Shown here in pieces: positions 8,999 to 63,960 of a stretch of DNA of 64,000 bases. The stretch's first letter is position 1. Each line of letters opens with the position of its first letter. Both the position numbers and the translations under genes were made by a program. The notes beneath the pieces were generated by a model, which worked only from the letters and a program-made list of their open reading frames with translations, made no database searches and was not told the DNA's origin. This stretch comes from an uncultured Actinomycetota bacterium (GTDB lineage Bacteria > Actinomycetota > Actinomycetes > Mycobacteriales > Cryptosporangiaceae), in assembly GCA_963746095.1 (NCBI GenBank), contig CAVVAL010000006.1:45158-109157 (forward strand), given 5' to 3'.

Positions 8999-11715
8999 CT
9001 ACATCCCCGTGCTCATGTCGACGAAGCGGCTGAAGTGACCCTGGAACGCGACCGTGATCGTGTCGGTCGGACCGTTACGGTGCTTGGCCACGATGAAGTC
9101 CGCCTCGCCCGCGCGCGGGGATTCCTTTTCGTAGTAATCCTCCCGGTGTAGGAGGATAACGGCGTCGGCGTCCTGTTCGATCGATCCCGATTCACGCAGG
9201 TCAGAGAGCTGCGGGCGCTTGTCGGTGCGCTGCTCGGGGCCACGGTTCAGCTGACTGACCGCGATCACCGGCACCTCCAGCTCCTTCGCGAGGAGCTTGA
9301 GACCACGGGAGAGTTCGGAGACTTCCTGCTGGCGGCTCTCGGTCTTCTTCGGCGAGCTCATCAGCTGGAGGTAGTCGAGCAGGATGAGCCGCAGGTCGTG
9401 CCGCTGCTTGAGCCGGCGGGCCTTCGCCCGGATCTCCATCATCGTCATGTTCGGCGAGTCGTCGATGTAGAGCGGAGCCTCGCTCACCTCACCCATCCGG
9501 CGAGCCAGCTTGGTCCAGTCGTCCTCGGACAGCTGGCCGGACCGGATGTGGTGCAGCGGCACCTTCGCCTCCGCCGAGAGCAGCCGCATGGTGATCTCGA
9601 TCTTGCTCATTTCCAGGCTGAACACCGCCGAGGTGAGCCCGTGCCGGATCGAGGCCGACCGCAGCACGTCCAGCCCGAACGTGGAGTTGTGCACGACGAT
9701 GTCGTTCGCGACGAAGTTGTGCGTGCCGTCGATCGTCAGGTCGTAGACCTCGGCCATGCCGTCCGGTTGGACCGAGACGATCGGATCCCACAGCACGTCG
9801 CTCTCGGCCAGCTCGCGCAGCGGCTGGGAGTCGAGCGCCTTGGCCAGCTCGGCCAGCCGATCCCGGCCGATGCCCTGCTTGCCGACGTGCCAGTTGTGGG
9901 TACGCGGGCGGCCGCACCGCTCGCTCACCTCGGCCCAGCTCTGCGTGCCCTTCTCGGCGAGCACCAGGTCCCACACCTCGACCGGGAGCAGGTCGGTGTT
10001 CGAGTGGGTCTTCCTGGTCTGGGTGGCCTGGTAGACGCGGTCGAGCTGGTCGGTCTTGCCGACGATGCCGATCTCTTCGCAGAACCGTTCGATCTGGCGG
10101 GCCTGGTGCAGCATGACCTGCCAGGCCCAGCGCTGCTCGCCCCGGTACTTGACCTTCTTCTTGACCAGATCCGCGGTGAGGCCGAACCGGAGCAGCAGGT
10201 GCTGAACGTCCCGGGCGAGCCGCTCGCTGATCGAGCAGTAGCCGACCTGCACCAGCTTCTTGCCGACCTTCGTGTCCGAGACGCTGGCCCAGCCGTCGGT
10301 GGCGTAGAGCCGGGACAGGAAGATCCGCAGCTGCCACGTGCTGAGCCGGTGGTACGCGGCCGGCACGTGCTTCTCCGCACTGCCCAGCCCCATCAGGCCG
10401 ACGCTCTTGAGGTGCTCCGTGAGCGGGTTCGGCAGCCGACTCGGAGTGGAGAAGCTCAGCGCGGTCGAATGGCGGTGCTGGCCGGGCTCGTCGTCCCGCT
10501 GCTGCTGATCGGGGTCGGCGCAGTCCTCGGCCTCGCAAAGCCGATAGGCCACCGGACGGACGTCCAGGCCGAGCTGGCGGCACACCGCGTTGCGTCTGCG
10601 AGGATGCCGCGGATTCATCGCAGCTGAGGCGGGGGGTTTCAGAGGTCAGCGAGCCGTCGCCGATCAGGATACGCGGTGAGCGAGACGAGCGCGTCGGGCA
10701 GCTCATCATTGGCTTCCACCCGCACGTTCCGGGGAACCGCGATGTGGTCGCCCTTGCGCAGTTCCTCCAGCGGTACCCAGCCGCGCAGCGTCCGCATCGG
10801 GTGGTTCGCGGTGGCGCTGATGCTGCGGCCCGAGCGGGTCGTCATCCGGAAGACCGGCCGGACACCGTTGTGCAGGAAGTCCGACGGCCGTACGGTGTCC
10901 AGCGTCCAGTCGTCCCGCATCGTGTGCAGCCGCACCGGCTCACCGGCCTGGCCACGCCGGACGAACTCGGCGACGGTCATTCGCTCGCCGCTCGCCGCTT
11001 CGGTGATCAATGTGTCAAAACGGACACACTTACCCAAACCGGGCCTGGCAGCCACGACGATCAGCTGGCCCGGGTGGAAGCCGTTCATCAGCCGGTCGAG
11101 ATCCATGAAGCCGGTCGGGACGCCGCTCATGATGCCGCCGGTCGCGCCGATGGCCTCGATCTCGTCCATCGTCGGCTGGAGCAGCTCCTCGAGGACCGTG
11201 TAGTCCTCGCTGGTGCGCCGCTCGGTCACCTCGTAGACGGCCTGCTGGGCCAGGTCCACGACGTCGTCGACGTCCCGGCCTTGGCCGCTGGCGGCGCCCT
11301 GCCCGAGCTGGACGATCCGGGTACCGGCCTCGATCAGCCGCCGCAGGACCGCACGCTCGGAGACGATCTTGGCGTAGTAGCCGGCGTTCGCCGCCGTGGG
11401 CACGAGGTTGATCAGCGTGTGCAGGTACGAGGCGCCGCCGATCCGGCCCAGCCCGCCGCTGTCCGCCAGCGCGGCGGCCACCGTCACCGGGTCAGCCGGC
11501 TCGCCCCGCCCGTAAAGATCCAGAACGGCGTCGAAGACCGTCGCGTGGGCGGGCTTGTAGAAGTCTCCGGCCTTGAGGATCTCGACGACGTCGGCGATGG
11601 CGTCCTTGCTCAGCAGCATGCCGCCGAGGACGCTCTGCTCCGCCGCGAGATCCTGCGGCGGCATCCGGTCGTACTCCGTCGGTGCGACAGGCCGCACATC
11701 GTCCGTGACTGCCAC
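8999..11715 (-). CDS. dnaB: Replicative DNA helicase DnaB interrupted by an intein in the Walker A (P-loop) motif; the intein portion contains a stop and frameshift(s)
   Basis: N-extein PPQDLAAEQSVLGGMLLS...GQLIVVAARPGLGK then intein C-VRFDTLI; C-extein resumes HN/STFGLDVLRSA...AVSQLNRGPEQRTDKRPQLSDLRESGSIEQDADAVILL. Exteins sum to ~457 aa, the normal DnaB size. Confidence 0.9.
9686..11028 (-). mobile_element. DnaB intein with LAGLIDADG homing-endonuclease domain (~447 aa)
   Basis: Starts with Cys after GLGK and ends VVHN before Ser+1. LAGLIDADG block 1 ILIGDGSL and block 2 FLSRLYATDGWAS / QHLLLRFGLTADLV. As read, the reading frame breaks twice between 10615 and 10665, once next to a G6 homopolymer. 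Confidence 0.8.
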
Positions 11716-11867
11716 GCCGCCCCCCACCGTTCGTTCCCCGTACGTCGCGTGTGCAACGTGTGTACCAACCGGGTGTGTCAAAACCGTGCGGATGATGCCG
11801 ATGTGACCGGCACTTCCGGGTGGCGCCCATGACAGTAGGGAGTCGCGGCACCCCGGCGCACTCCTGG

Positions 11868-12005
11868 CTGTGCACATAGCTGTGCTCAGCCTGTGGATTA
11901 CGGTGGGTAACCCTGTGCGGTACCTGTGTGCAGCCTGTGGACAACTTGGGGAAACAGCTGTGCACACCGCTTCTCACCTGGGAAAACACCGTGCACCTGC
12001 TGTGG
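11868..12005. promoter_or_regulatory. Phased array of ~8 CTGTG(G/C)A motifs (DnaA-box-like TGTGGACAA) between rplI and dnaB
   Basis: CTGTG starts at 11868, 11880, 11891, 11913, 11924, 11935, 11958 and 12000; gaps of 12, 11, 22, 11, 11, 23 and 42 bp are multiples of ~11. The 15-mer gcctgtggacaactt (11933-11947) is identical to 61921-61935 upstream of dnaA. Confidence 0.55.
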
Positions 12006-12342
12006 AACCAAGAAACTTGGCAAGAAAGTTCGCGGCCGGCGCGTCCACGGCCACCGACGCCCGGCCGGGCGTCCCGGGGGGCTGAACGCGAACCAGCCTC
12101 CGAAGTCGGGGCGCCCGTAGAGAACGCCCTGCTCATCGGGGTTCGGCACAGCGTGACGACCGGTCCGCGAGGATTGCCGCACAGACGGCGTGGAGAACTG
12201 GAAGTCCGATCTGTCCGGACTTACTCGCTGTCGACAACTCCTGCCGCTCCGCACACGCCGATCAGGCCCGCGAAGCAGAGTTATCCACAGAACGCCGGAG
12301 AGCCGGCCCGAACGGGGGCCGGCTCTCCGGAAGGAACTGAAA

Positions 12343-12789
12343 TCAGGCGGCGACGACGTCGATCGTGATGGTCGCCGTCACGTCGCCGTGGATCTTCACG
12401 GTGACCTTGTGCGCGCCGGCCGTCTTGATGTGGCCGGGCAGCTCGACGCTGCGCTTGTCCAGCACCGGGCCGCCAGCGGCCTTGACCGCGCCGACCACGT
12501 CGTTCGAGGTGACCGAGCCGAACAGCCGGCCGCCCTCGCCCGCGCGGGTCTTGAGCGACACCTTGAGGCCCTCGAGCTGCGCCTTGATCTCCTTGGCGTG
12601 GCCGAGGTCGCGCACCTCGCGCACCGAGCGGGCGCGCTTGATCGCGGTGACCTGCTTCTCGGCGCCCTTGGTGGCGATGATCGCCTTGCTCTGCGGCAGC
12701 AGGTAGTTCCGGCCGTAGCCGTCCTTGACCTCTACCACGTCGCCCGGCGCGCCGAGCCCGTCAACGTCTGCGGTGAGAATGATCTTCAT
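12343..12789 (-). CDS. rplI: 50S ribosomal protein L9
   Basis: MKIILTADVDGLGAPGDVVEVKDGYGRNYLLPQ..., 148 aa. Confidence 0.95.
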   Translation of the reverse strand: MKIILTADVDGLGAPGDVVEVKDGYGRNYLLPQSKAIIATKGAEKQVTAIKRARSVREVRDLGHAKEIKAQLEGLKVSLKTRAGEGGRLFGSVTSNDVVGAVKAAGGPVLDKRSVELPGHIKTAGAHKVTVKIHGDVTATITIDVVAA

Positions 12790-12803
12790 CTGTCGGACCC
12801 CTC

Positions 12804-13040
12804 TCAGCGGGACGTGCTGGAGTAGGGGAGCAGCGCCATCTCACGGGCGTTCTTGATCGCCTTGGCGATCTGTCGCTGCTGCTGGCTGGACACCCCGGTG
12901 ACCCGACGGGCCCGGATCTTGCCGCGGTCGGAAATGAACTTCCGCAGCAGGTTGGTGTCCTTGTAGTCGATGTAGCGGATCTTGTCCTTGTCGAGCGGAT
13001 TGACCTTCTTCTTAGGCTTCCGCACCGGCGGCTTCGCCAT
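12804..13040 (-). CDS. rpsR: 30S ribosomal protein S18
   Basis: [50 protein letters not shown], 78 aa. Confidence 0.95.
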
Positions 13041-13093
13041 GGTGATGCTCCGTTATCTCGTTCAGAAGTCAGGAATCGTGTGTGTTGGAGCGG

Positions 13094-13612
13094 TCAGAAC
13101 GGGGGTTCGTCGCTGAACGAACCGCCGCCGCCACCGCTCGCCGCGGGAGTGGCCGCTGCCCAGGGGTCGTCCGCCGGAGCGCCAGCGCCGCCGCCGGAGG
13201 CACCGAATCCGCCGCCACCGCCCCCGCCACCGCCGCCAGCACCGCTACGCGCGGTCTTGTTGACCTTGGCGGTGGCGCTGCGCAGGGACGGGCCGAGCTC
13301 GTCGACCTCGACCTCGTAGACCGTGCGCTTCTCGCCCTCGCGAGTCTCGTACGACCGCTGCTTGAGCCGGCCCTGCACGATCACGCGCATGCCACGCTGC
13401 AGCGACTCGGCCACGTTCTCCGCAGCCTGACGCCACACGTTGCAGGTCAGGAAGAGGCTTTCGCCGTCCTTCCACTCACCGCTCGTGCGGTCGTAGGTGC
13501 GCGGAGTCGAGGCGAGCCGGAACTTCGCGACGGCCGCGCCGCTCTGGGTGAACCGGAGCTCGGGGTCGTCGACGAGGTTGCCGACCAGGGTGATGACGGT
13601 TTCGCCTGCCAT
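13094..13612 (-). CDS. ssb: Single-stranded DNA-binding protein
   Basis: OB-fold N-terminus, Gly-rich tail and acidic tip ...FSDEPPF, 172 aa. Confidence 0.95.
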
Positions 13613-13704
13613 TGGAGAACTCCTCCTACCGGAACGCGCCGGCCGCGTTCGCGTCGACGTTCGAGCTCAAGATTCTCAGCCCGGTACGACGGAACGCGAC
13701 GTGG

Positions 13705-14022
13705 TCACTTCTTGCGGTCGCGACGGTTGGTCGAGCGCATCTCCGGCCGGAGGACCTTGGTGCGCAGCACGGACTCGTTCAGGTTGAGCTGCCGGTCGAG
13801 CTCCAGCACGGCGGCCGGCTCAGCCTGCAGGTCGACCACGGCGTAGAGGCCTTCGACCTTCTTGTTGATTTCGAAGGAGAGCCGACGACGGCCCCACACA
13901 TCTACCTTCTCGACACTGCCGCCCGACGTGCGGATCACGTTGAGGAACGTGTCCAGCGACGGGGCGACGGTGCGCTCCTCGAGATCGGGGTCGAGGATCA
14001 CCATGACTTCGTAGTGACGCAA
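13705..14022 (-). CDS. rpsF: 30S ribosomal protein S6
   Basis: [15 protein letters not shown]...; start assigned to TTG 14022, preceded by AGGAGG with a 10-nt spacer. The listed GTG at 14034 overlaps the RBS and is unlikely to be used. Confidence 0.9.
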
Positions 14023-14208
14023 GGGAAAACCCACCTCCTATGGTCTCAGCGGCCACGGTCTCTCCGTGGCAGGAGGGTCATTCGCGTCAGCGAACCGAGG
14101 AAGCCTAACAGCCACGGGGCGCCGGCTCCGAATCCGTGGGTGGGACCTGGGGAGGAATGACCACACCAACGTGTTGGAACCGACGCCCCGTGGGGATCGA
14201 GATGCCGC

Positions 14209-15076
14209 TCAGCTGTGCGTGGCGACGCTTCGCTGAGCGAGCACGGTGCGGATCGCCGCCGAGCCGACGCCGCCCAGCAGGACGGTCGCGACCAGGATCA
14301 GCAGGCCGATTCCGCCGCCGACACTGGTCACCTCGGTGCTCCGGCCGGCCACGTTCTCCTTGCCGGAGGCCGACTCCTCGGGCGTCACCTCGCCCGGGTC
14401 CTGGCTCGCCGAGCCAGCCTCCTCGGTGGCCGTCGGCAGATCGGCGCTGGCCATGCCGCCGCGGGCGACCGGGCTGCGGCCGAGCGACGGCGGGCTCTGC
14501 GGTGCGCCAGGTGACGACCACCGGAGGTAGCTGTCCACCGGCCGGCGTGGACGCCCCCGGGCCGGGCACGGACGGCACGCCCGGGTTACCTGGGGTGCCG
14601 GGCTGGCTCGGGCCGGGCTGACTCGGTTGGGTCGGCGCGGCGGTCGGCGGGGTGGTGCGCGGGGCCGCGGCCACGTTGACCGTGCCGGTGGGCGAGGTGA
14701 GGGTGCCGACCAGCGGGATGTTCAGCGCGGCGGCGCTGGCCTTCATCTGCTTGGCGGACGACGCGCCCTGGAACGTGAAGGTCCGGCTCGCGCCCTTGGC
14801 CAGCTGGTACGACTGGCCGCCGAGGCTCAGCGTGAGCGGCACGCTGGCCCCGTTCACGAACGTCAGCCGGCCACCGGACGGCACGCTCACCGCGGTCGGC
14901 GTGACCGCGAGGCTGTCCAGCAGCCCGAGCAGGCTGATGCCCTTGAAAGTCATCGTGGGCGCGGGTGCGGGTTCGGCGGCGGCGGCCGGCGACGCGATGA
15001 ACGCGCCGATGCTGAGCGAGCTGAGCGTTAACACGCCGAGAGTGGCGGCGGCGCGGCGCACTCGCGTGGCCATGGT
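14209..15076 (-). CDS. Secreted, C-terminally membrane-anchored Pro-rich protein; frameshift near 14540
   Basis: Signal peptide MATRVRRAAATLGVLTLSSLSIGAFIASPAAAA, a Pro-rich linker (PTQPSQPGPSQPGTPGNPG), then a second frame ending in a TM anchor (GGGIGLLILVATVLLGGVGSAAIRTVLAQRS). Confidence 0.5.
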
Positions 15077-15316
15077 GCTGCTGCCGGCAGGCAGTCGAGA
15101 ACTCGACACGATTGCGGTCTCCCCCAGGTCACAGGTCTACGTTGGCCCCCCAACGATCTTCATACTTCACTCGCTTCAACGAAGTTGCCAGCCGAAGGTG
15201 ACGCCCGAGGTGTACATCTTTCACTGATTTCCACGGGCCGAACGTGAGAGCGGCGCCGCGCCGGTTATCCACAGGGCTCGATCCGGCTTGTCGGTGCCAC
15301 GCCGTACCCTCGGCGC

Positions 15317-16093
15317 ATGCGAATCGGAGCCCACGTCGATCCTGCCGACCCGCTCGCCGAGGCCGAGGCCCGCAAGGCGGAGCTGGTGCAGTTCTTCCTG
15401 TCCGACCCGCAGGGCTGGAAGAAGCCCAAGCCCCGGGAGGACGCGGCGGCCATCCTCGCCAGCGGCCTGGACGTCTACATCCATGCGCCGTACATCGTGA
15501 ACCTGGCGAGCACCAACAACCGGATCCGGATCCCGTCCCGGAACCTGCTCACCCAGCACGCCGACGCGGCCGCCGAGGTGGGCGCCAAGGGTCTGATCGT
15601 GCACGGCGGGCACGTCACCCAGGACGACGATCCGAACGTCGGCTTCGAGAACTGGCGCAAGGCGTTCGTGGCCGCCGAGGAGAAGGGCGGCTACAAGACG
15701 CAGATCCTGGTCGAGAACACGGCCGGCGGTGATCATGCGATCGCGCGCCGGTTCGACCGGCTGGCCCGGCTCTGGGACGCCATCGGCGAGTTCGGCCCCG
15801 GGTTCTGCCTGGACACCTGCCATGCGCACGCGGGCGGCGAGGAACTGCTGGACATCGTCGAGCGGATCAAGGCGATCACCGGCCGGATCGATCTGGTGCA
15901 CGCGAACGACTCCAAGGACGGCTTCGACTCCGGCCGGGACCGGCACGAGAATCTCGGCGAAGGCCAGATCGACGCCGAGCTGCTCGTCGCCACGGTGGCC
16001 GCGGCCGGCGCGCCGGTGGTGTGCGAGACGCCCGGCGGTGCCGAGGGTCAGGGCGCCGACATCGCGTTCCTCCGCTCCCGCCTGGGTAGCTGA
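15317..16093 (+). CDS. nfo: Endonuclease IV (AP endonuclease family 2)
   Basis: MRIGAHVD...VENTAGG...[11 protein letters not shown]...[12 protein letters not shown], the Nfo metal-binding signature blocks; 258 aa. Confidence 0.8.
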
Positions 16094-30002: not shown

Positions 30003-30501
30003 GCGCACGGTGTAGCCGGACTCGCTGCGCCAGAGTTCCACGTGGAACGGTGCCCTCAGCTCGGTCCGGTACGGCCACCAGCGAGCCAACACCGCGCCGC
30101 TGAGCGGACCGAGTTCCTCCGGCGGCAACGCGGCCGGATCCACGAACGCCGCCTCGACGATCCCGTCGTCCTCCTGTGGCACCGGCACGGTGGCGTCGTC
30201 GGCCGGCTCGGCGAGGTAGAAGGCGCCGAGCACGGCGGAGCCGTGGTGGGTGCGGAACGAGCGTGTACGTGCTGACCAGGCGATCGATCGTCACGCTGAT
30301 GCCGGCCTCCTCGGCCACCTCGCGGACCACCGTCTGCTCCAGCGTCTCGCCGGGTTCCTGGCCGCCGCCGGGCACCTCCCAGCGCACGCCGGTGGCCCGG
30401 ACCTGCCGCACCATCAGCAGCCGATCGGCTCTGATCACCAGGCCGGCGGCACCGGCGGTGGTACGGGACGGGGACCGGTAGACGAGCGGCGCGTCGGACA
30501 C
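30003..30501 (-). CDS. NUDIX hydrolase; frameshift near 30250
   Basis: NUDIX box GGGQEPGETLEQTVVREVAEEAGI; the C-terminal part is in ORF 30000..30233 (LGAFYLAEPADDATVPVPQEDDGIVEAAFVDPAAL). Confidence 0.65.
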
Positions 30502-36850: not shown

Positions 36851-36983
36851 GGGGTCGGCGGTCGCCGCCGGGGCGGCGACGGCGGGGCCACGGGCGGCGG
36901 TGCTCAGGCCGGGCGGTGCTCAGGCCGGGCGGTGCTCAGGCCGGGCGCCGCCCAAGCCGGGCGGTGCCCAAGCCGGGCGGTGC

Positions 36984-38466
36984 TCAGGCGGAGGGCGGGG
37001 CCTCGGACGGCGGTGCCTCAGCCAGCGCCGGCTGGATGCCCTCGGCGGCGGCCCAGCGGAGCAGCTCGGCCTCGGCCTCGTCCCGGTCCAGCGGCCCGCG
37101 GTCGAGCCGCAGCTCCTTCAGGTGCTTCCAGGCCCGGCCGACGATCGGACCCGGCGGCACGCCGAGCAGCTCCATGATCGCGTTGCCGTCCAGGTCCGGC
37201 CGCACCGCGCGGAGGTCCTCGTCGGCCTGAATGCGGGCGATCCGCTCCTCCAGCGCGTCGTAGGTCGCGGCGAGCGCGGCGGCCCGGCGACGGTTGCGCG
37301 TGGTGCAGTCGGAGCGCACGAGCTTGTGCAGGCGCGGCAGCAGCTCCTCGGCGTCGGTCACGTAGCGGCGCACGGCCGAGTCGGTCCACTCGCCGCGGCC
37401 GTAGCCGTGGAACCGCAGGTGCAGGAAGACGAGGTTGGCGACGTCCTCGATCACGTCCTTCGGAAAGCGCAGCGTGCGCATCCGCTTGCGGGTCATCTTC
37501 GCCCCGACCACCTCGTGGTGGTGGAAGCTGACGCCGCCGCCCTCCTCCAGCCGCCGGGTCGCCGGCTTGCCGATGTCGTGCATCAGCGCGGCCATCCGGA
37601 GCACGAAGTCGGGGCCGTCCTCCTCCAGGCCGATGGCCTGCTCGAGCACGGTCAGCGTGTGCTCGTAGACGTCCTTGTGCTGGTGGTGCTCGTCGATCTC
37701 CAGCTGCATGCCGGGCAGCTCGGGGAGGATGTACCCGGCCAGCCCGGTGTCGACAAGTAGACGTAGACCGGCGACCGGGTCGGCGCCCTTGATCAGCTTG
37801 GTCAGCTCGTCGCGCACCCGTTCCGGCGTGATCCGCTCGATCTCGCCGGCCATCGCGGTCATCGCGGCCACCACCTCGGGCGCCACCTCGAACCGCAGCT
37901 GGGAGGCGAACCGCGCCGCCCGCAGCATCCGCAACGGATCGTCGCCGAACGAGTCCTCGGGCTTGCCGGGCGTGCGGATCACCCGGTCGGCGAGGTCCTG
38001 GACGCCGCCGTAGGGGTCGGTGAAGTCGTGGCCGGGCAGCGAGACGGCCATCGCGTTGACCGAGAAGTCGCGGCGCACCAGGTCGTCGGCGAGCGAGTCG
38101 CCGTACTGCACGATCGGGTTCCGGCTGACCCGGTCGTAGGCCTCGGCGCGGTACGTGGTGATCTCCAGCCGCAGCCCGCCCCGGCTCAGGCCGACCGTGC
38201 CGAAGTCGATGCCGATCGTCCAGATCGCCTCGGCCCAGCCCTTGACCAGCTCCAACACGGCTTCCGGCCGGGCGTCGGTGCAGAAGTCGAGGTCGTCGCC
38301 GAGCCGGCCGAGTAGCGCGTCCCGCACCGACCCGCCGACCAGATGGAGTTCGTAGCCCGGCCGCGGCGAACCGGCGCCCCAGCTCGTCGGCGACCGGAGA
38401 GACGCGAAGCAGCTCCGCAACGGCGTTGCGCTGCGCGGAGCTGAGAGAGGAAGGACCATCGACCAC
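36984..38466 (-). CDS. cca: CCA tRNA nucleotidyltransferase / poly(A) polymerase family with HD domain; frameshift near 38340
   Basis: HLVGGSVRDALLGR...GTVGL...RRDFSVNAMAV (Pol-beta nucleotidyltransferase head), then an HD domain (MHDIGKP...HHHEVVGAKM). The first 37 aa (MVDGPSSLSSAQRNAVAELL...) are in the neighbouring frame. Confidence 0.85.
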
Positions 38467-43212: not shown

Positions 43213-43595
43213 GACGACCCCCACCAGCCCGTTGACGCGCCGCGGTCCGGCCCGCGTCCACGGGCAGCTTAGTGTCTCGGGCGGTCCCATCGGCCGTCCG
43301 AAACGGGCAAGGTTCACGTCCCGTCAAGGCATCCCGCAACGGTTTGGCCGCTGTGTCGAGAACGACGAATCGGTGAGCGTACACCACTCGCGCAACCCAC
43401 CTTAGGGATTGCGCATTGCGGAAATTAATGTAGGGAAATATCGGACATTGATTCTCTAACTACGCCGATAAACAACGTAACGAATATCTCAAGCTTGTAA
43501 CGCGCGGCGGTTATGACCGATGATCCCGTCGGCACTGCGCGCACCGGGCGCGCACGCCGCCGGAGCACACGCCGAGTCCTACCCGCGCTCCGACG

Positions 43596-56296: not shown

Positions 56297-57301
56297 GATG
56301 TTGCCCCCAAGGTTGCGCCTGCGCCCCGTGCCGCGATCTCGCGGGCGGCCGCCAGATAGCTGGTCGCACCCCGCGATCCCGGGTCGTACGTGATGACCGA
56401 CTGACCATATCCCGGCGCTTCGGAGACCCGGACACTCCGCGGGATGACCGCGTCGAGCACCTGATCCGGGAAGTGGCCGCGCACCTCGGCGGCGACCTGG
56501 TCGGCGAGCTTGGTCCGCCCGTCGTACATCGTCAGCAGGATCGTGGAGACCCGGACGTCGTTGTTGAGGTGCGCCCGCACGAGGTCCACGTTGCGGAGAA
56601 GCTGACCCAGCCCCTCCAGCGCGTAGTACTCGCACTGGATCGGGATCAGCACCTCGCGGGCGGCGACGAGCGCGTTGACCGTGAGCAGTCCCAGCGACGG
56701 CGGGCAGTCCACGAAGACGTAGTCGATCTGCTCCGGGTAGGAGTCGATCGCGCGCCGGAGCCGGGACTCTCGAGCCACCACGGAGACGAGTTCGATCTCC
56801 GCGCCGGCGAGGTCGATCGTGGCCGGCACACAGAAGAGGTTGGGGACGCCCTCGACCTGGACGGCCGCCTCGGCGATGTCCATCCCCTCGACGAGGACCT
56901 CGTACGCGCTCGGTACGCCGGCGTGGTGCGGCACGCTCAGACCGGTCGACGCGTTCCCCTGCGGGTCGAGGTCGACCACCAGGACCCGACTCCCGTGCAG
57001 CGCGAGCGCGACCGCCAGGTTCACCGTCGTGGTGGTCTTGCCGACGCCACCCTTCTGGTTGGCGACGCCGAGCACCCGTCGATGCGGCGGACGGGGGAGG
57101 CTGGTGCCGGACGGATTCAGGACCGCGACCGCCCGCTTCGCCTCTGCGGCGATGAGCAGGTCGTCGTCCGTTTCACGTGAAACATGGTCGACCTGGCTCG
57201 CCATCGCTCCGGTCAATGGATCCGTTTCACGTGAAACATCGGCGGCCGGGGCGCCCCGGTAGGTGCTCGGTGTTTCACGTGAAACGGTCGCGTTATCGAG
57301 C
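56293..57301 (-). CDS. parA: Chromosome partitioning ATPase ParA (Soj); N-terminal extension contains three parS sites; start uncertain
   Basis: Deviant Walker [26 protein letters not shown]; ...DLDPQGNAS...; ATGA overlap with parB. Candidate starts at 57301 ([11 protein letters not shown]) or 57204 ([12 protein letters not shown]). Confidence 0.85.
57169..57184. promoter_or_regulatory. parS site 1 (cGTTTCACGTGAAACa)
   Basis: Perfect 14-bp palindrome GTTTCACGTGAAAC matching the canonical parS core; translated as VSRET within the parA 5' region. Confidence 0.9.
57223..57238. promoter_or_regulatory. parS site 2 (cGTTTCACGTGAAACa)
   Basis: Identical 16-mer, 54 bp from site 1. Confidence 0.9.
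57271..57286. promoter_or_regulatory. parS site 3 (tGTTTCACGTGAAACg)
   Basis: Same 14-bp core, 48 bp from site 2. Confidence 0.9.
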
Positions 57302-61693: not shown

Positions 61694-61920
61694 GTCAACG
61701 TCTCCGATACGGCTATGGTGCTGCGGGCAGGGCCACCGAACGGTTTCAGCCGATTCGGACGGCCATCCCGCCGCTCAGAACTGGGCGCGCGTAACCACCG
61801 GAACGAGCCCGGTCGCGGCCATAGGCCGTATCAGCGTACGGCCCGCCCCACCAGAGGGTCAAACACGGCCCCATCGACACGCCGCTCCCCGCTCCGGAGC
61901 CGCCCGCGGACCCGGTCGCA

Positions 61921-62150
61921 GCCTGTGGACAACTTCTTGTTCGGCCGACATCGACGCTGTTAGCGTCCCCGTTCTCCGGTCTTTGTCCGCGGCAGTGTCG
62001 CAGGCATCCGACCCTCGCCGTGGTCCGTAGGCTGGGCCCGTGGATCGACCGTCCGGAGGCACACCGAAGCTGGGGGGAACGGCGACGGCGGTGGGCCCCG
62101 GGAAGTGAGCCCGCTGCATACACAGGGTGTGGAAAGCCGTGTGGACAGTG
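61921..62150. promoter_or_regulatory. dnaA upstream region with DnaA-box-like motifs
   Basis: TGTGGACAA at 61924-61932, TTTGTCCGC at 61982-61990, TGTGGAAAG at 62127-62137, TGTGGACAG at 62140-62148. These compare with the high-GC actinobacterial DnaA box TTGTCCACA. Confidence 0.6.
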
Positions 62151-62201: not shown

Positions 62202-63960
62202 GTGGCCGAGGATAACGTCGACCTCGACGTGATCTGGGCGGCGGCGACCGAGAGTCTCGCCGACGACGCGCTCAGCCCGCAGCAACGAGCGTGGATGCGG
62301 TTGACCCGCCCCCTCGCGCTGGTCGAGGACACCGCGCTACTCGCGGCTCCGAACCAGTTCGCCAAGGACGCCTTCGAGAGCCGGCTCCGCCCGGTCATCA
62401 CCGAGGCGATCGCCCGCCAGCTGGGCCGGCCGGTGACCGTCGCGGTCACGGTCCGCCCGAGCGACGAGCGAGCGGCCAGCGAGGATCGGCAGCAGCCGCG
62501 CCAGCCGGAGGAGCAGCAGCCCGGCCCGGCGCACCAGTACGGCGCAGCCCGACCAGCGCCCCGGCTACGACCAGGACTACAGCGCCCCCCGGCCGGAGCC
62601 GCACGACCCGTACCGCCACGCGATGCCGTCGGGCACCGCCATCGACCCGTACCAGAGCACCCCCCGGCCGGGCCCCAGCGAGCAGCAGCGCGGCGGCCAG
62701 CCCGGCGGCGAGCGCGGCGACCAGCGCCGGCCCGCCGAGCCGGAGCCCTACGGCGGCGGCCCGGCGTTCGGTGACCGCAGCGGCTTCCGCCCCGGCCGCT
62801 ACAGCGAGGAGCTGGCCGGTGACCGGCACGCGCCGCCGGCCGACCAGCCGCCGCTCGGCCGCGTGGTCGAGCTGCCCACCCGCGGCACCGGCCGGGACGA
62901 CCACCGGCACCGGCCGCAGGCCGAGCCCGCCCGGCTGAACCCGAAGTACACGTTCGAGACGTTCGTCATCGGCTCGTCCAACCGGTTCGCCCACGCGGCC
63001 GCGGTGGCGGTGGCCGAGGCGCCGGCGAAGGCCTACAACCCGCTGTTCGTCTACGGCGGCTCCGGGCTGGGCAAGACCCACCTCCTGCACGCGATCGGGC
63101 ACTACGCCCAGAGCATCGGCACGGCGCGCACGGTGCGGTACGTCTCGACGGAGGAGTTCACCAACGACTTCATCAACTCGCTCCGGGACGACAAGACCCA
63201 GGCGTTCCAGCGCCGCTACCGGGACGTCGACATCCTGCTCGTCGACGACATCCAGTTCTTGGAGAACCGGGAGCGGACGCAGGAGGAGTTCTTCCACACG
63301 TTCAACACCCTGCACAACGCGAACAAGCAGATCGTCATCTCCTCCGACCGCTCGCCCAAGCAGCTGTCGACGCTGGAGGACCGGATGCGGACCCGGTTCG
63401 AGTGGGGCCTGCTCACCGACATCCAGCCGCCCGACCTGGAGACCCGGATCGCGATCCTGCGGAAGAAGGCCGCCCAGGAGCGGCTCGCCGCGCCGCCGGA
63501 GGTGCTGGAGTTCATCGCCAGCAAGATCTCCAGCAACATCCGCGAGCTCGAGGGCGCGCTGATCCGGGTGACCGCGTTCGCGAGCCTCAACCGGCAGCCG
63601 GTGGACATGGGGCTGGCCGAGGTGGTCCTCAAGGACCTCATCCCGGAGGGCGGCGGCCCGGAGATCACCGCGGCGACGATCATGGCCGCCACGGCCGAGT
63701 ACTTCAGCCTCACGATGGACGACCTGTGCGGCTCGTCGCGCTCCCGGGTGCTGGTGAACGCCCGCCAGGTCGCCATGTACCTCTGCCGCGAGCTGACGGA
63801 CCTCTCGTTGCCGAAGATCGGCCAGACGTTCGGCGGCCGGGACCACACCACGGTCATGCACGCCGACCGCAAGATCCGATCGCAGATGGCGGAGCGGCGT
63901 TCGCTCTACAACCAGATCGCCGAGCTGACCAACCGCATCAAGCAGCGGGCCCAGCAGTGA
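62202..63960 (+). CDS. dnaA: Chromosomal replication initiator DnaA; frameshift in the linker near 62550
   Basis: N-terminal domain [22 protein letters not shown]...; after the shift, [28 protein letters not shown], Walker [16 protein letters not shown], Walker [11 protein letters not shown], and the C-terminal DNA-binding helix ...[30 protein letters not shown]. Confidence 0.95.

What the first reader, a model, noticed from the sequence alone, without database searches (positions are those of the whole stretch)
11868..12005. Helically phased array of CTGTG(G/C)A / DnaA-box-like motifs upstream of dnaB, sharing a 15-mer with the dnaA promoter
The 627-bp rplI-dnaB spacer holds at least 8 copies of CTGTG(G/C)(A/C). 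Starts are at 11868, 11880, 11891, 11913, 11924, 11935, 11958 and 12000, giving gaps of 12, 11, 22, 11, 11, 23 and 42 bp, all multiples of about one helical turn. One copy, CTGTGGACAAC, is the reverse complement of the actinobacterial DnaA box TTGTCCACA. The 15-mer gcctgtggacaactt at 11933-11947 is identical to 61921-61935 in the rpmH-dnaA promoter region, which carries further TGTGGACA(A/G) boxes. Same-face phasing of weak and strong boxes is what cooperative DnaA oligomer binding requires. This suggests DnaA-dependent control of the ssb-rplI-dnaB region, or a secondary DnaA-titration site, about 50 kb from dnaA.
Basis: partly seen in the sequence, partly recalled or inferred. Interest (0 to 1): 0.65.

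Follow-up and report, generated by a model that had tools for sequence, protein, structure and literature searches.

The report
DnaA-box array at the dnaB promoter
The repeats upstream of the replicative helicase gene dnaB are a conserved row of binding sites for the replication initiator DnaA, matching a site already shown to bind DnaA in mycobacteria, so the finding is real but not a new kind of element.

Summary
Eight CTGTG cores lie on one strand at the stated coordinates, where about 0.05 are expected. Their period is 11.0 bp. Only 5 of the 8 fit the stated 7-mer, and the identity shared with the dnaA promoter is 18 nt, not 15.

Read on the dnaB strand, the region holds nine contiguous head-to-tail DnaA-box-like 9-mers (11967-11869), spaced 10-12 bp. 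One is a perfect TTGTCCACA (11944-11936). Three weaker units lie upstream (12009-11979).

The core array is 83% invariant in the two closest genomes, against 21% for the middle of the spacer. In 45 orthologous rplI-dnaB spacers from several actinomycete orders, boxes are 43-fold denser than in the flanks. 176 of 189 (window included) point the same way as dnaB, and 11 bp is the commonest spacing. In most of them the last box sits 6-8 nt before a -35/-10-like promoter.

Published work shows DnaA binding at the orthologous site. It is the top site in M. tuberculosis in vitro and in M. smegmatis ChIP-seq, stronger than oriC, and a DnaA mutant that binds it less under-expresses dnaB.

Best reading: a cooperative DnaA platform that activates dnaB and probably also sequesters DnaA near oriC. 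It is a new member of a known kind.

The parts
11869..11967 (-). Core array of nine contiguous head-to-tail DnaA-box-like 9-mers, read on the dnaB strand. High-coordinate starts are 11967 GTGTGCACA, 11955 GTTTCCCCA, 11944 TTGTCCACA (perfect), 11933 CTGCACACA, 11922 TACCGCACA, 11910 TTACCCACC, 11900 TAATCCACA, 11889 CTGAGCACA and 11877 ATGTGCACA. Start-to-start spacing is 12, 11, 11, 11, 12, 10, 11, 12 bp.
   Evidence: Sequence. CTGTG positions. Eight of the nine units score at or above the 99.5th percentile with the mycobacterial PWM; GTTTCCCCA is weaker at about the 98th (score added by hand from the matrix, against the percentiles). The stretch 11866-11947 is 83% invariant across WIN, L002 and L001.
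11936..11944 (-). Perfect actinobacterial high-affinity DnaA box TTGTCCACA, the presumed nucleation site. It lies inside the 18-nt stretch (11930-11947) that is identical to 61918-61935.
   Evidence: Consensus from PMC4285127. The extended context cccAAG-TTGTCCACA-GG recurs in orthologous spacers.
11979..12009 (-). Distal sub-array of three weaker in-register units: GGTTCCACA 12009-12001, AGGTGCACG 11998-11990 and GTTTTCCCA 11987-11979. They have 3-4 mismatches and 11-bp steps.
   Evidence: Sequence. PWM percentiles 97.7-98.4 for the first two units. The distal stretch 11948-12012 is 52% invariant in the three-genome alignment.
11855..11861 (-). -35-like element (gTGCGCc). The relatives have TTGAGC, TTGCCT or TTGCAA at this position, starting 6-8 nt after the last box.
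   Evidence: Multi-order alignment and per-locus listing. Inferred; no TSS data. The generic sigma-70 consensus scan found nothing here.
11832..11837 (-). -10-like hexamer TACTGT (TAnnnT), 31 nt after the last box. The implied TSS near 11825 places the core array at about -44 to -142.
   Evidence: Of 46 spacers, 32 show TAnnnT in the searched window after the last scored box: 27 at +30/31 and 5 at +42. The other 14 returned none within that window, and in many of these a weaker unit intervenes and TAGCGT lies just beyond it (alignment). Inferred.
11713..11715 (-). dnaB start codon GTG, preceded by the RBS-like GGTGGGGGG at 11721-11729.
   Evidence: Translation and Pfam DnaB N-terminal domain. 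The GTGGC start aligns across loci.
12295..12330 (-). rplI terminator-like hairpin with a 13-15 bp G+C-rich stem. It separates rplI from the dnaB control region.
   Evidence: Sequence. Conserved in L002 and L001. It has no T-tract, so the consensus terminator scan missed it.
12281..12289 (+). Distal inverted DnaA box TTATCCACA (1 mismatch), just downstream of the rplI hairpin.
   Evidence: CTGTGGATAAC is invariant in WIN, L002 and L001. Many other lineages carry a box shortly after rplI.
12343..12789 (-). rplI (ribosomal protein L9), the upstream neighbour.
61918..61935 (+). 18-nt stretch in the rpmH-dnaA intergenic region, identical to 11930-11947 and holding a perfect DnaA box (61924-61932, minus strand). 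Further boxes lie at 62140-62148 (CTGTCCACA) and 62128-62136 (CTTTCCACA).
   Evidence: The orthologous rpmH-dnaA region is DnaA-bound in mycobacteria.

Best explanation
The element is a DnaA oligomerisation platform built into the dnaB promoter. It is the ortholog of the rplI-dnaB ('Rv0057') DnaA-binding site of mycobacteria.

Proposed mechanism. DnaA nucleates on the perfect box TTGTCCACA (11944-11936). ATP-DnaA then spreads cooperatively, head to tail, over the neighbouring low-affinity 9-mers, which are spaced 11-12 bp apart (9-mer plus a 2-3 bp gap). The spread runs toward dnaB, so the last protomer (11877-11869) ends 6-8 nt upstream of a weak -35 element.

Occupancy of the promoter-proximal weak sites would therefore track the level of active DnaA. 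This would stimulate dnaB transcription and couple helicase supply to initiation potential.

The site holds about 9-12 DnaA molecules and lies about 50 kb from dnaA and the adjacent oriC. It probably also acts as a DnaA sink that is duplicated soon after initiation.

Shown here: sequence architecture, statistics, conservation, and fixed geometry relative to a promoter-like element. Shown elsewhere, in mycobacteria: DnaA binding at the orthologous site and reduced dnaB mRNA in a DnaA mutant that binds it less. Inferred: binding in this organism, direction of spreading, activation rather than repression, and titration.
For: Eight CTGTG cores in 137 bp where 0.05 are expected, with period 11.0 bp (R = 0.94, scan p = 0.0012).

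Eight same-strand units score at or above the 99.5th percentile with the published mycobacterial DnaA PWM. The spacer has the top DnaA-box density in the window.

The core array is 83% invariant in three genomes. The comparison values are 21% for the middle spacer, 64% for rplI third codon positions and 88% for first and second positions.

In 45 orthologous spacers there are 6.1 boxes per kb, against 0.14 per kb in the flanks. 35 of 45 have a perfect same-orientation box. 38 of 45 have an adjacent pair 10-12 bp apart, where shuffles predict 0.05.

176 of 189 boxes (46 spacers, window included) are oriented like dnaB. Nearest-neighbour spacing is most often 11 bp (67 cases), then 12 bp (22 cases).

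In most orthologs across several orders the last box is followed by TTGnnn, then 17-18 nt, then TAnnnT: 27 of 46 spacers have TAnnnT at +30/31 and 5 at +42.

A DnaA gene is present in the window.

Literature. The rplI-dnaB site is the top M. tuberculosis IDAP-seq site, 36-45x at 150 nM against 8-15x for oriC, centred 195-220 nt upstream of dnaB. It is also the top M. smegmatis ChIP-seq peak, 225x against 44x for oriC. The AAA+ domain mutant I282T drops binding to 12-14x and dnaB mRNA by log2 -0.70 (PMC7738170). E. coli DnaA needs box pairs 2-3 bp apart (PMC11317965). Arrays of low-affinity sites nucleated from high-affinity boxes are described for oriC (PMC4285127).
Against: There are no binding or expression data for this organism. 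The experimental support comes from Mycobacteriales, a different order, and I could not read the mycobacterial sequence itself.

The promoter and TSS are inferred from conserved hexamers. The window's own -35 (GTGCGC) is poor, and the generic sigma-70 scan found nothing.

Several units have 3-4 mismatches and could be unbound, or bound by another factor.

In M. tuberculosis the dnaB promoter is also reported as a target of WhiA/WhiB2 and MtrA, so DnaA need not be the main regulator.

The I282T effect on dnaB is a correlation.

The assembly appears to carry indels (frameshifts in dnaA and dnaB), so individual 11 versus 12 bp spacings are uncertain by 1 bp.
Confidence: 0.8

Rival explanations
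1. Pure DnaA sink or replication-timing element, in the manner of E. coli datA, the B. subtilis DnaA-box clusters or the S. coelicolor D78 cluster. The array would exist to sequester or inactivate DnaA close to oriC, with little direct effect on dnaB transcription.
For: The site has high capacity (9-12 units) and lies about 50 kb from dnaA/oriC. The orthologous site binds more DnaA than oriC in mycobacteria. Non-oriC clusters that restrain initiation are cited as precedents in PMC3479198 and PMC3245932.
Against: In most lineages examined the array keeps one orientation relative to dnaB and a fixed distance of 6-8 nt to a -35/-10-like element. A sink alone would not need either. The I282T DnaA mutant lowers both binding here and dnaB mRNA. 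The two roles are not mutually exclusive.
Confidence: 0.3
2. Operator for an OmpR-family response regulator, such as MtrA or PhoP, that binds tandem 11-bp direct repeats. On this reading the CACAG(G/C) cores, which resemble the older MtrA motif GTCACAGCG, would be its half-sites and not DnaA boxes.
For: MtrA and PhoP both use 11-bp-period direct repeats. dnaB is listed among MtrA targets in M. tuberculosis. S. coelicolor dnaB was picked as a bioinformatic PHO-box candidate. G follows the box in 66% of orthologous sites. The invariant unit GGTTACC fits a single cGTnACc half-site.
Against: Tandem GTnAC-N6-GTnAC gives 0 hits in the spacer. GTCACAGCG at up to 2 mismatches gives 2 hits where 3.2 are expected, and none is in the array. 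PHO repeat units are not enriched (8 found, 7.1 expected). The units have GTnnAC, one base longer than the MtrA core. Purified DnaA alone binds the orthologous region in vitro.
Confidence: 0.07
3. A second or vestigial replication origin, or part of a bipartite origin.
For: It is a dense unidirectional DnaA-box cluster, stronger than oriC in mycobacterial binding assays.
Against: No AT-rich unwinding element is present: the lowest G+C in any 40-bp window of the spacer is 52%. There is no GC-skew switch at 12 kb. The array abuts a promoter, and the canonical dnaA-dnaN position begins at the window end (dnaA stops at 63960).
Confidence: 0.02
4. Chance or a neutral low-complexity repeat with no function.
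For: Exact repeats of 15 nt or more are not rare in this G+C-rich window.
Against: Local enrichment has P about 1e-12 after correction. The core is 83% invariant, against 21% for the neighbouring spacer. The array recurs in 38-45 independent genomes of several orders.
Confidence: 0.01

Closest known systems
Mycobacterial rplI-dnaB ('Rv0057') DnaA-binding site (Hicks et al. 2020, PMC7738170)
   Same: Same genomic position, between rplI and dnaB, about 150-300 nt upstream of the dnaB start and about 50-60 kb from oriC. It is co-listed with an rpmH-dnaA site. Other Mycobacteriales examined here (Gordonia, Nocardia) show the same tandem boxes next to the same promoter-like element.
   Different: The organism is a distant, uncultured actinomycete lineage (best RplI identity 89% to a MAG). 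Binding is not measured here. The paper's text as searched describes no DnaA boxes at the dnaB site (its only box mentions concern Rv0010c-Rv0011c and the PWM table), whereas here the units, spacing and promoter geometry are resolved. In M. tuberculosis the region is annotated as an ORF (Rv0057). Here the spacer ORFs have no Pfam match and the middle of the spacer is poorly conserved.
E. coli double DnaA boxes and oriC low-affinity arrays (Stringer et al. 2024, PMC11317965; Rozgaja et al. 2011 as summarised in PMC4285127)
   Same: 9-mers in one orientation separated by 2-3 bp. A high-affinity box flanks a run of weak sites. Cooperative, ATP-DnaA-favoured filling is the accepted mechanism.
   Different: The box consensus differs (TTGTCCACA versus TTATCCACA). 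The run is longer (9 contiguous units, against pairs at E. coli regulon sites). The location is a promoter and not an origin, and no DUE is present.
DnaA-titrating clusters: E. coli datA, B. subtilis DBCs, S. coelicolor D78/H24/H69
   Same: Non-oriC, oriC-proximal clusters with DnaA affinity equal to or above oriC.
   Different: A titration phenotype is untested here. datA function needs IHF, for which nothing comparable was examined. I could not check whether any of the Streptomyces clusters coincides with the rplI-dnaB spacer, because PMC1595370 is not held and no Streptomyces locus was retrieved.
Caulobacter crescentus dnaB as a member of the DnaA regulon (Hottes et al. 2005, as cited in PMC8203912 and PMC7738170)
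   Same: DnaA boxes upstream of the replicative helicase gene, and DnaA-dependent expression.
   Different: The phylum is unrelated. Only predicted single boxes are reported there, not a phased array.
MtrA / PhoP operators (OmpR-family 11-bp direct repeats)
   Same: 11-bp periodic direct repeats upstream of a promoter. Both regulators have been linked to dnaB promoters in the literature.
   Different: Their motif cores do not match the array.

Membership tests
DnaA-box cluster / DnaA-regulated promoter | At least one consensus high-affinity DnaA box of the lineage (TTGTCCACA) | tested here: met
   Perfect box at 11936-11944, minus strand. Consensus for M. tuberculosis and S. coelicolor from PMC4285127.
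DnaA-box cluster / DnaA-regulated promoter | Several further boxes in the same orientation with 2-3 bp gaps (11-12 bp start to start) | tested here: met
   Nine contiguous units spaced 10-12 bp. The same spacing dominates in orthologs. The E. coli requirement is documented in PMC11317965.
DnaA-box cluster / DnaA-regulated promoter | Cognate DnaA with a helix-turn-helix domain IV encoded in the genome | tested here: met
   Bac_DnaA and Bac_DnaA_C domains in ORF 62623-63960, and DnaA_N in 62202 onward (E = 7.8e-4, 19.6 bits, below Pfam's 24.6-bit cutoff), although the two parts are in different frames.
DnaA-box cluster / DnaA-regulated promoter | Physical binding of DnaA to the region | not testable with these tools
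   Only orthologous evidence is available: M. tuberculosis IDAP-seq and M. smegmatis ChIP-seq.
DnaA-box cluster / DnaA-regulated promoter | DnaA-dependent change in transcription of the adjacent gene | not testable with these tools
   Indirect only: fixed geometry relative to the -35/-10-like element in most orthologs, and M. tuberculosis I282T lowering dnaB mRNA by log2 -0.70.
Ortholog of the mycobacterial rplI-dnaB DnaA site | Same flanking genes and the same position relative to the dnaB start | tested here: met
   The site lies between rplI and dnaB. The array is 153-297 nt upstream of the GTG, and the M. tuberculosis peak windows are 195-220 nt upstream of Rv0058.
Ortholog of the mycobacterial rplI-dnaB DnaA site | Continuity of the box cluster through intermediate taxa, including Mycobacteriales | tested here: met
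   45 spacers were examined, including Gordonia and Nocardia. The Mycobacterium sequence itself was not retrieved.
datA-like / DBC-like DnaA titration or inactivation locus | Deletion causes early or extra initiation, and extra copies delay it | not testable with these tools
   No genetic data are available.
datA-like / DBC-like DnaA titration or inactivation locus | oriC-proximal cluster with DnaA capacity comparable to or above oriC | tested here: inconclusive
   The site is 50 kb from dnaA and has 9-12 units. oriC lies outside the window, so no direct comparison is possible. In mycobacteria the ortholog exceeds oriC.
Replication origin (oriC) | AT-rich DNA unwinding element adjacent to the boxes | tested here: not met
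   The minimum G+C of 40-bp windows in the spacer is 52%.
MtrA operator | Tandem cGTnACc repeats with an 11-bp period | tested here: not met
   0 matches to GTNAC-N6-GTNAC at up to 1 mismatch in the spacer. No match to GTCACAGCG at up to 2 mismatches falls within the array.
PhoP PHO box | At least two 11-nt repeat units of GKTCAYYYRSG | tested here: not met
   8 single-unit matches at up to 2 mismatches, where 7.1 are expected. No good double unit lies in the array.

The most novel reading that the evidence does not exclude
The rplI-dnaB array may be a class-wide, ancient actinobacterial counterpart of datA. On this reading it is the strongest DnaA site in the chromosome and is conserved from Mycobacteriales to Pseudonocardiales, Frankiales, Geodermatophilales and uncultured lineages. 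Its unidirectional filament of about nine protomers ends at the -35 element of the helicase promoter. One element would then both buffer active DnaA just after initiation and set helicase supply. The specific weak-site sequences would be conserved so that they are filled only at high ATP-DnaA.
Probability: 0.35. Interest if true: 0.55.

Novelty: new member of a known kind. Interest (0 to 1): 0.35.

Why it matters
DnaA binding upstream of dnaB has been reported for mycobacteria, but in the literature I could reach (5 papers read in part, 7 full-text searches; Smulczyk-Krawczyszyn 2006 not held) I did not find its anatomy or phylogenetic reach described.

This analysis shows a fixed design across several actinomycete orders: one strong box, a run of weak boxes with 2-3 bp gaps in one orientation, and an end 6-8 nt before the -35 element of the helicase promoter in most of them.

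That gives a concrete, testable model for how initiator activity could be coupled to helicase expression, and possibly to initiator buffering, in a group that includes M. tuberculosis and antibiotic producers.

For genome annotation, it warns that ORFs called in this spacer (such as Rv0057-like ones) overlap a regulatory element. It also warns that origin-prediction programs may mistake this cluster for oriC.

Tried and rejected
Rfam scan of 9000-16000 at E up to 1: nothing in the spacer, so no known RNA element explains the long spacer.

Generic sigma-70 promoter and terminator consensus scan: no hits. The promoter was instead inferred from cross-order conservation.

Spacer ORFs (11928-12368 on + and 11898-12254 on -): no Pfam family, and the region is poorly conserved. 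Treated as non-coding.

Pattern tests for PHO boxes, MtrA repeats, the LexA SOS box and AdpA sites: none is enriched, and none lies within the array. A single GACAC (WhiA core) lies in the leader at 11779-11775 at chance frequency.

Second-origin idea: rejected for lack of a DUE and of a skew switch.

A second PWM-dense stretch at 43300-43500 turned out to be an AT-rich island with no real boxes. It is an artefact of the AT-favouring PWM.

I tried to read Smulczyk-Krawczyszyn et al. 2006 (PMC1595370) to see whether the S. coelicolor H24 or D78 cluster is the dnaB spacer. The paper is not held, and searches for 'D78 cluster' and SCO3911 gave no location.

I ran no further search on fetching Mycobacterium or Streptomyces loci.

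Full report
**Context.** The window is a 71% G+C actinomycete sequence. On the minus strand it carries rpsF-ssb-rpsR-rplI (Pfam). A 627-bp spacer follows (11716-12342), then dnaB. The dnaB gene starts at GTG 11715-11713, has a DnaB N-terminal domain, and is interrupted by a LAGLIDADG intein. The dnaA gene begins at 62202 and ends at 63960. The spacer therefore lies about 50 kb from dnaA, and oriC (dnaA-dnaN) lies beyond the window. No close cultured relative exists. The best RplI matches are two MAGs at 89% and 84% identity (L002 and L001).

**Checking the observation.**
- CTGTG occurs on the + strand exactly at the eight stated positions.
- The pentamer is rare elsewhere: 59 copies on both strands in 64 kb, fewer than in shuffles. 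Eight in 137 bp compares with 0.05 expected (P about 1e-15, about 1e-12 corrected).
- The positions are periodic at 11.0 bp (Rayleigh R = 0.94). Only 0.12% of random eight-site sets reach this over a scan of periods.
- The stated 7-mer CTGTG(G/C)(A/C) fits only five of the eight copies and is not enriched window-wide.
- The identity shared with the dnaA upstream region is 18 nt (11930-11947 = 61918-61935). Length alone is weak evidence, because about 30 other repeat families with exact seeds of at least 15 nt exist in this window. What matters is that both copies centre on a perfect TTGTCCACA in non-coding DNA.

**Anatomy on the dnaB strand**.
- Nine contiguous head-to-tail 9-mers run from 11967 to 11869: GTGTGCACA, GTTTCCCCA, TTGTCCACA (perfect), CTGCACACA, TACCGCACA, TTACCCACC, TAATCCACA, CTGAGCACA and ATGTGCACA.
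- Their start-to-start spacing is 12, 11, 11, 11, 12, 10, 11, 12 bp.
- Three weaker in-register units lie upstream (12009-11979).
- I scored them with the DnaA position weight matrix published for mycobacteria. Eight same-strand units fall at or above the 99.5th percentile of all 9-mers in the window.
- By simple mismatch counting, the spacer is the densest DnaA-box region of the window, ahead of the dnaA promoter.
- The period is that of a 9-mer plus a 2-3 bp gap, not the 10.5-bp helical repeat.

**Conservation.**
- In an alignment with the two closest genomes, the stretch 11866-11947 is 83% invariant.
- The comparison values are 21% for the middle of the spacer, 64% for rplI third codon positions and 88% for first and second positions.
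- Even the weak units keep their particular mismatches.
- I retrieved 80 loci with RplI. Of these, 51 have dnaB downstream, and 45 have a spacer under 1.3 kb.
- The taxa include Pseudonocardiales (Actinokineospora, Saccharopolyspora, Pseudonocardia and others), Mycobacteriales (Gordonia, Nocardia), Frankia relatives, Nakamurella, Blastococcus and several uncultured groups.
- In these spacers, boxes with at most one mismatch occur at 6.1 per kb, against 0.14 per kb in the flanking 4.8 kb.
- 35 of 45 have a perfect same-orientation box.
- 38 of 45 have an adjacent pair 10-12 bp apart, where shuffles predict 0.05.
- With the window's own spacer included (46 spacers), 176 of 189 boxes point in the direction of dnaB.
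- Nearest-neighbour spacing is most often 11 bp (67 cases), then 12 bp (22 cases).
- These counts are not phylogenetically independent, but the pattern recurs in every order sampled.

**Promoter geometry.**
- In most orthologs, across several orders, the last box is followed after 6-8 nt by a -35-like TTGnnn (TTGCCT, TTGCAA, TTGAGC), then 17-18 nt, then TAnnnT (mostly TAGCGT).
- TAnnnT lies at +30/31 in 27 of 46 spacers and at +42, one extra weak unit away, in 5. In the other 14 the search window held none; in many of these a weaker unit intervenes and TAGCGT lies just beyond it.
- In the window these elements are gTGCGCc (11861-11855) and TACTGT (11837-11832).
- This implies a TSS near 11825 and places the core array at about -44 to -142.
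- This step is inferred. No TSS data exist, and a generic sigma-70 scan found nothing.
- A strong hairpin at 12295-12330 closes the rplI transcription unit. The array is therefore placed to control dnaB, not ssb or rplI.

**Experimental anchor from the literature** (Hicks et al. 2020, PMC7738170).
- Purified M. tuberculosis DnaA was applied to sheared genomic DNA. [quoted passage not shown] M. smegmatis ChIP-seq recovered the same five.
- In their S8 table the top-ranked windows genome-wide lie 195-220 nt upstream of Rv0058. Enrichment is 36-45x at 150 nM DnaA, against 8-15x for oriC.
- In S9 the dnaB-rplI peak is the strongest in vivo, 225x against 44x for oriC.
- The AAA+ domain mutant I282T drops enrichment at this site to 12-14x. 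The dnaB mRNA falls by log2 -0.70 (padj about 1e-46).
- In the window, the array lies 153-297 nt upstream of the dnaB start, and the window also has a box cluster in rpmH-dnaA. Both match the mycobacterial map.
- Independently, E. coli DnaA binds almost all its chromosomal targets as pairs of boxes 2-3 bp apart. Adding one base pair abolishes binding (PMC11317965).
- oriC arrays of weak sites are filled from flanking strong boxes, preferentially by ATP-DnaA (PMC4285127).

**Mechanism proposed.**
- DnaA nucleates at the perfect box 11944-11936.
- ATP-DnaA then extends head to tail over the weak units toward the promoter. The last protomer ends just upstream of a weak -35 element, and there it helps RNA polymerase.
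- Support for activation rather than repression comes from three points. The array lies upstream of the core promoter and does not overlap it. The -35 element is poor. The I282T correlation points the same way, and an AAA+ domain mutation selectively weakening a site built of weak phased boxes is what a cooperativity defect would predict (inference).
- The site would hold about 9-12 protomers and is replicated soon after initiation. A buffering role like datA, the B. subtilis clusters or S. coelicolor D78 (cited in PMC3479198) is plausible and not exclusive.
- I put 0.8 on 'DnaA-binding platform at the dnaB promoter', about 0.55 on net activation, and about 0.3 on titration being the main role.

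**Rivals tested.**
- MtrA and PhoP both use 11-bp direct repeats, and both have been linked to dnaB promoters. Their motifs are neither enriched nor present in the array.
- A second origin is unlikely. The minimum G+C in 40-bp windows is 52%, and there is no skew change.
- No Rfam family matches the spacer.
- The spacer ORFs have no family and are poorly conserved.
- Chance is excluded by the conservation.

**Limits.**
- I could not read the mycobacterial or Streptomyces spacers themselves.
- I could not read the 2006 Streptomyces cluster paper.
- dnaA and dnaB each show a frame break. This suggests indel errors in the assembly, so single 11 versus 12 bp steps carry an uncertainty of 1 bp.

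**Verdict.** It is the ortholog of an experimentally known DnaA site, hence a new member of a known kind. The added value is the resolved unit map, the conservation across actinomycete orders, and the recurring box-to-promoter geometry.

Noticed in passing
window 8999-11715 (minus strand): dnaB is split by a LAGLIDADG intein inserted after the P-loop GLGK. The reading frame breaks inside the intein: ORF1 stops at 10639, and ORF2, from 10618 in another frame, carries LAGLIDADG_3, the intein C-terminal part and DnaB_C.
   Followed up: partly
window 62202-63960 (+): dnaA is also in two frames. The weak DnaA_N match (below Pfam's cutoff) is in the frame starting at 62202, and the AAA+ and HTH domains are in ORF 62623-63960. 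Two essential genes with frame breaks suggest indel errors in the assembly. The nearest relative L002 carries an 'MFD' MAG name, which I take, from memory and unchecked, to be a long-read set.
   Followed up: partly
window 6530, 26198, 32794, 36793, 50726, 54305: Six dispersed copies of a palindromic element of about 50 nt, TTTGGGCGACATCTTC..GAAGATGTCGCCCAAA, with 61-75% identity over 85 nt. It looks like a REP- or MITE-type repeat.
   Followed up: no
window 57170-57183, 57224-57237, 57272-57285: Three perfect GTTTCACGTGAAAC palindromes, matching (from my own recollection, not checked here) the actinobacterial parS consensus, about 50 bp apart. 0.08 are expected by chance. A 2-mismatch copy lies at 30035.
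   Followed up: partly
window 36880-37007: Tandem array of a 16-nt unit (GGCGGTGCTCAGGCCG), about 8 copies.
   Followed up: no
window 43400-43500: A markedly AT-rich intergenic island in a 71% G+C genome. It scores high with the AT-favouring DnaA PWM but contains no real DnaA boxes.
   Followed up: partly
window 12281-12289 and 12295-12330: An inverted DnaA box TTATCCACA sits immediately after the rplI terminator hairpin. It is invariant in the two closest genomes, and many other lineages also carry a box shortly after rplI. It may be a distal partner for looping with the proximal array.
   Followed up: partly
window 11762-11783 (dnaB leader): A conserved leader block, CCCGGTTGGTA, is preceded by TTGACAC, which contains the WhiA core GACAC at 11779-11775. 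Many orthologs have cTGTCnnnCCCGGnnGGTA at this place. Its role is unknown; it could be a second promoter or a leader element.
   Followed up: no
L016, L064, L020 (dnaB leader regions): Sequences fitting, or close to, TCGAAC-N4-GTTCGA, which I recall (unchecked) as the actinobacterial LexA SOS box, lie between the DnaA-box array and dnaB in some lineages. None is present in the window (best match has 3 mismatches).
   Followed up: partly
orthologous loci L004, L012, L065, L068, L069, L072: In some genomes the rplI-dnaB distance is 1.6-2.4 kb, which suggests an inserted gene between them, as with Rv0057 in M. tuberculosis. These loci were left out of the spacer statistics.
   Followed up: no
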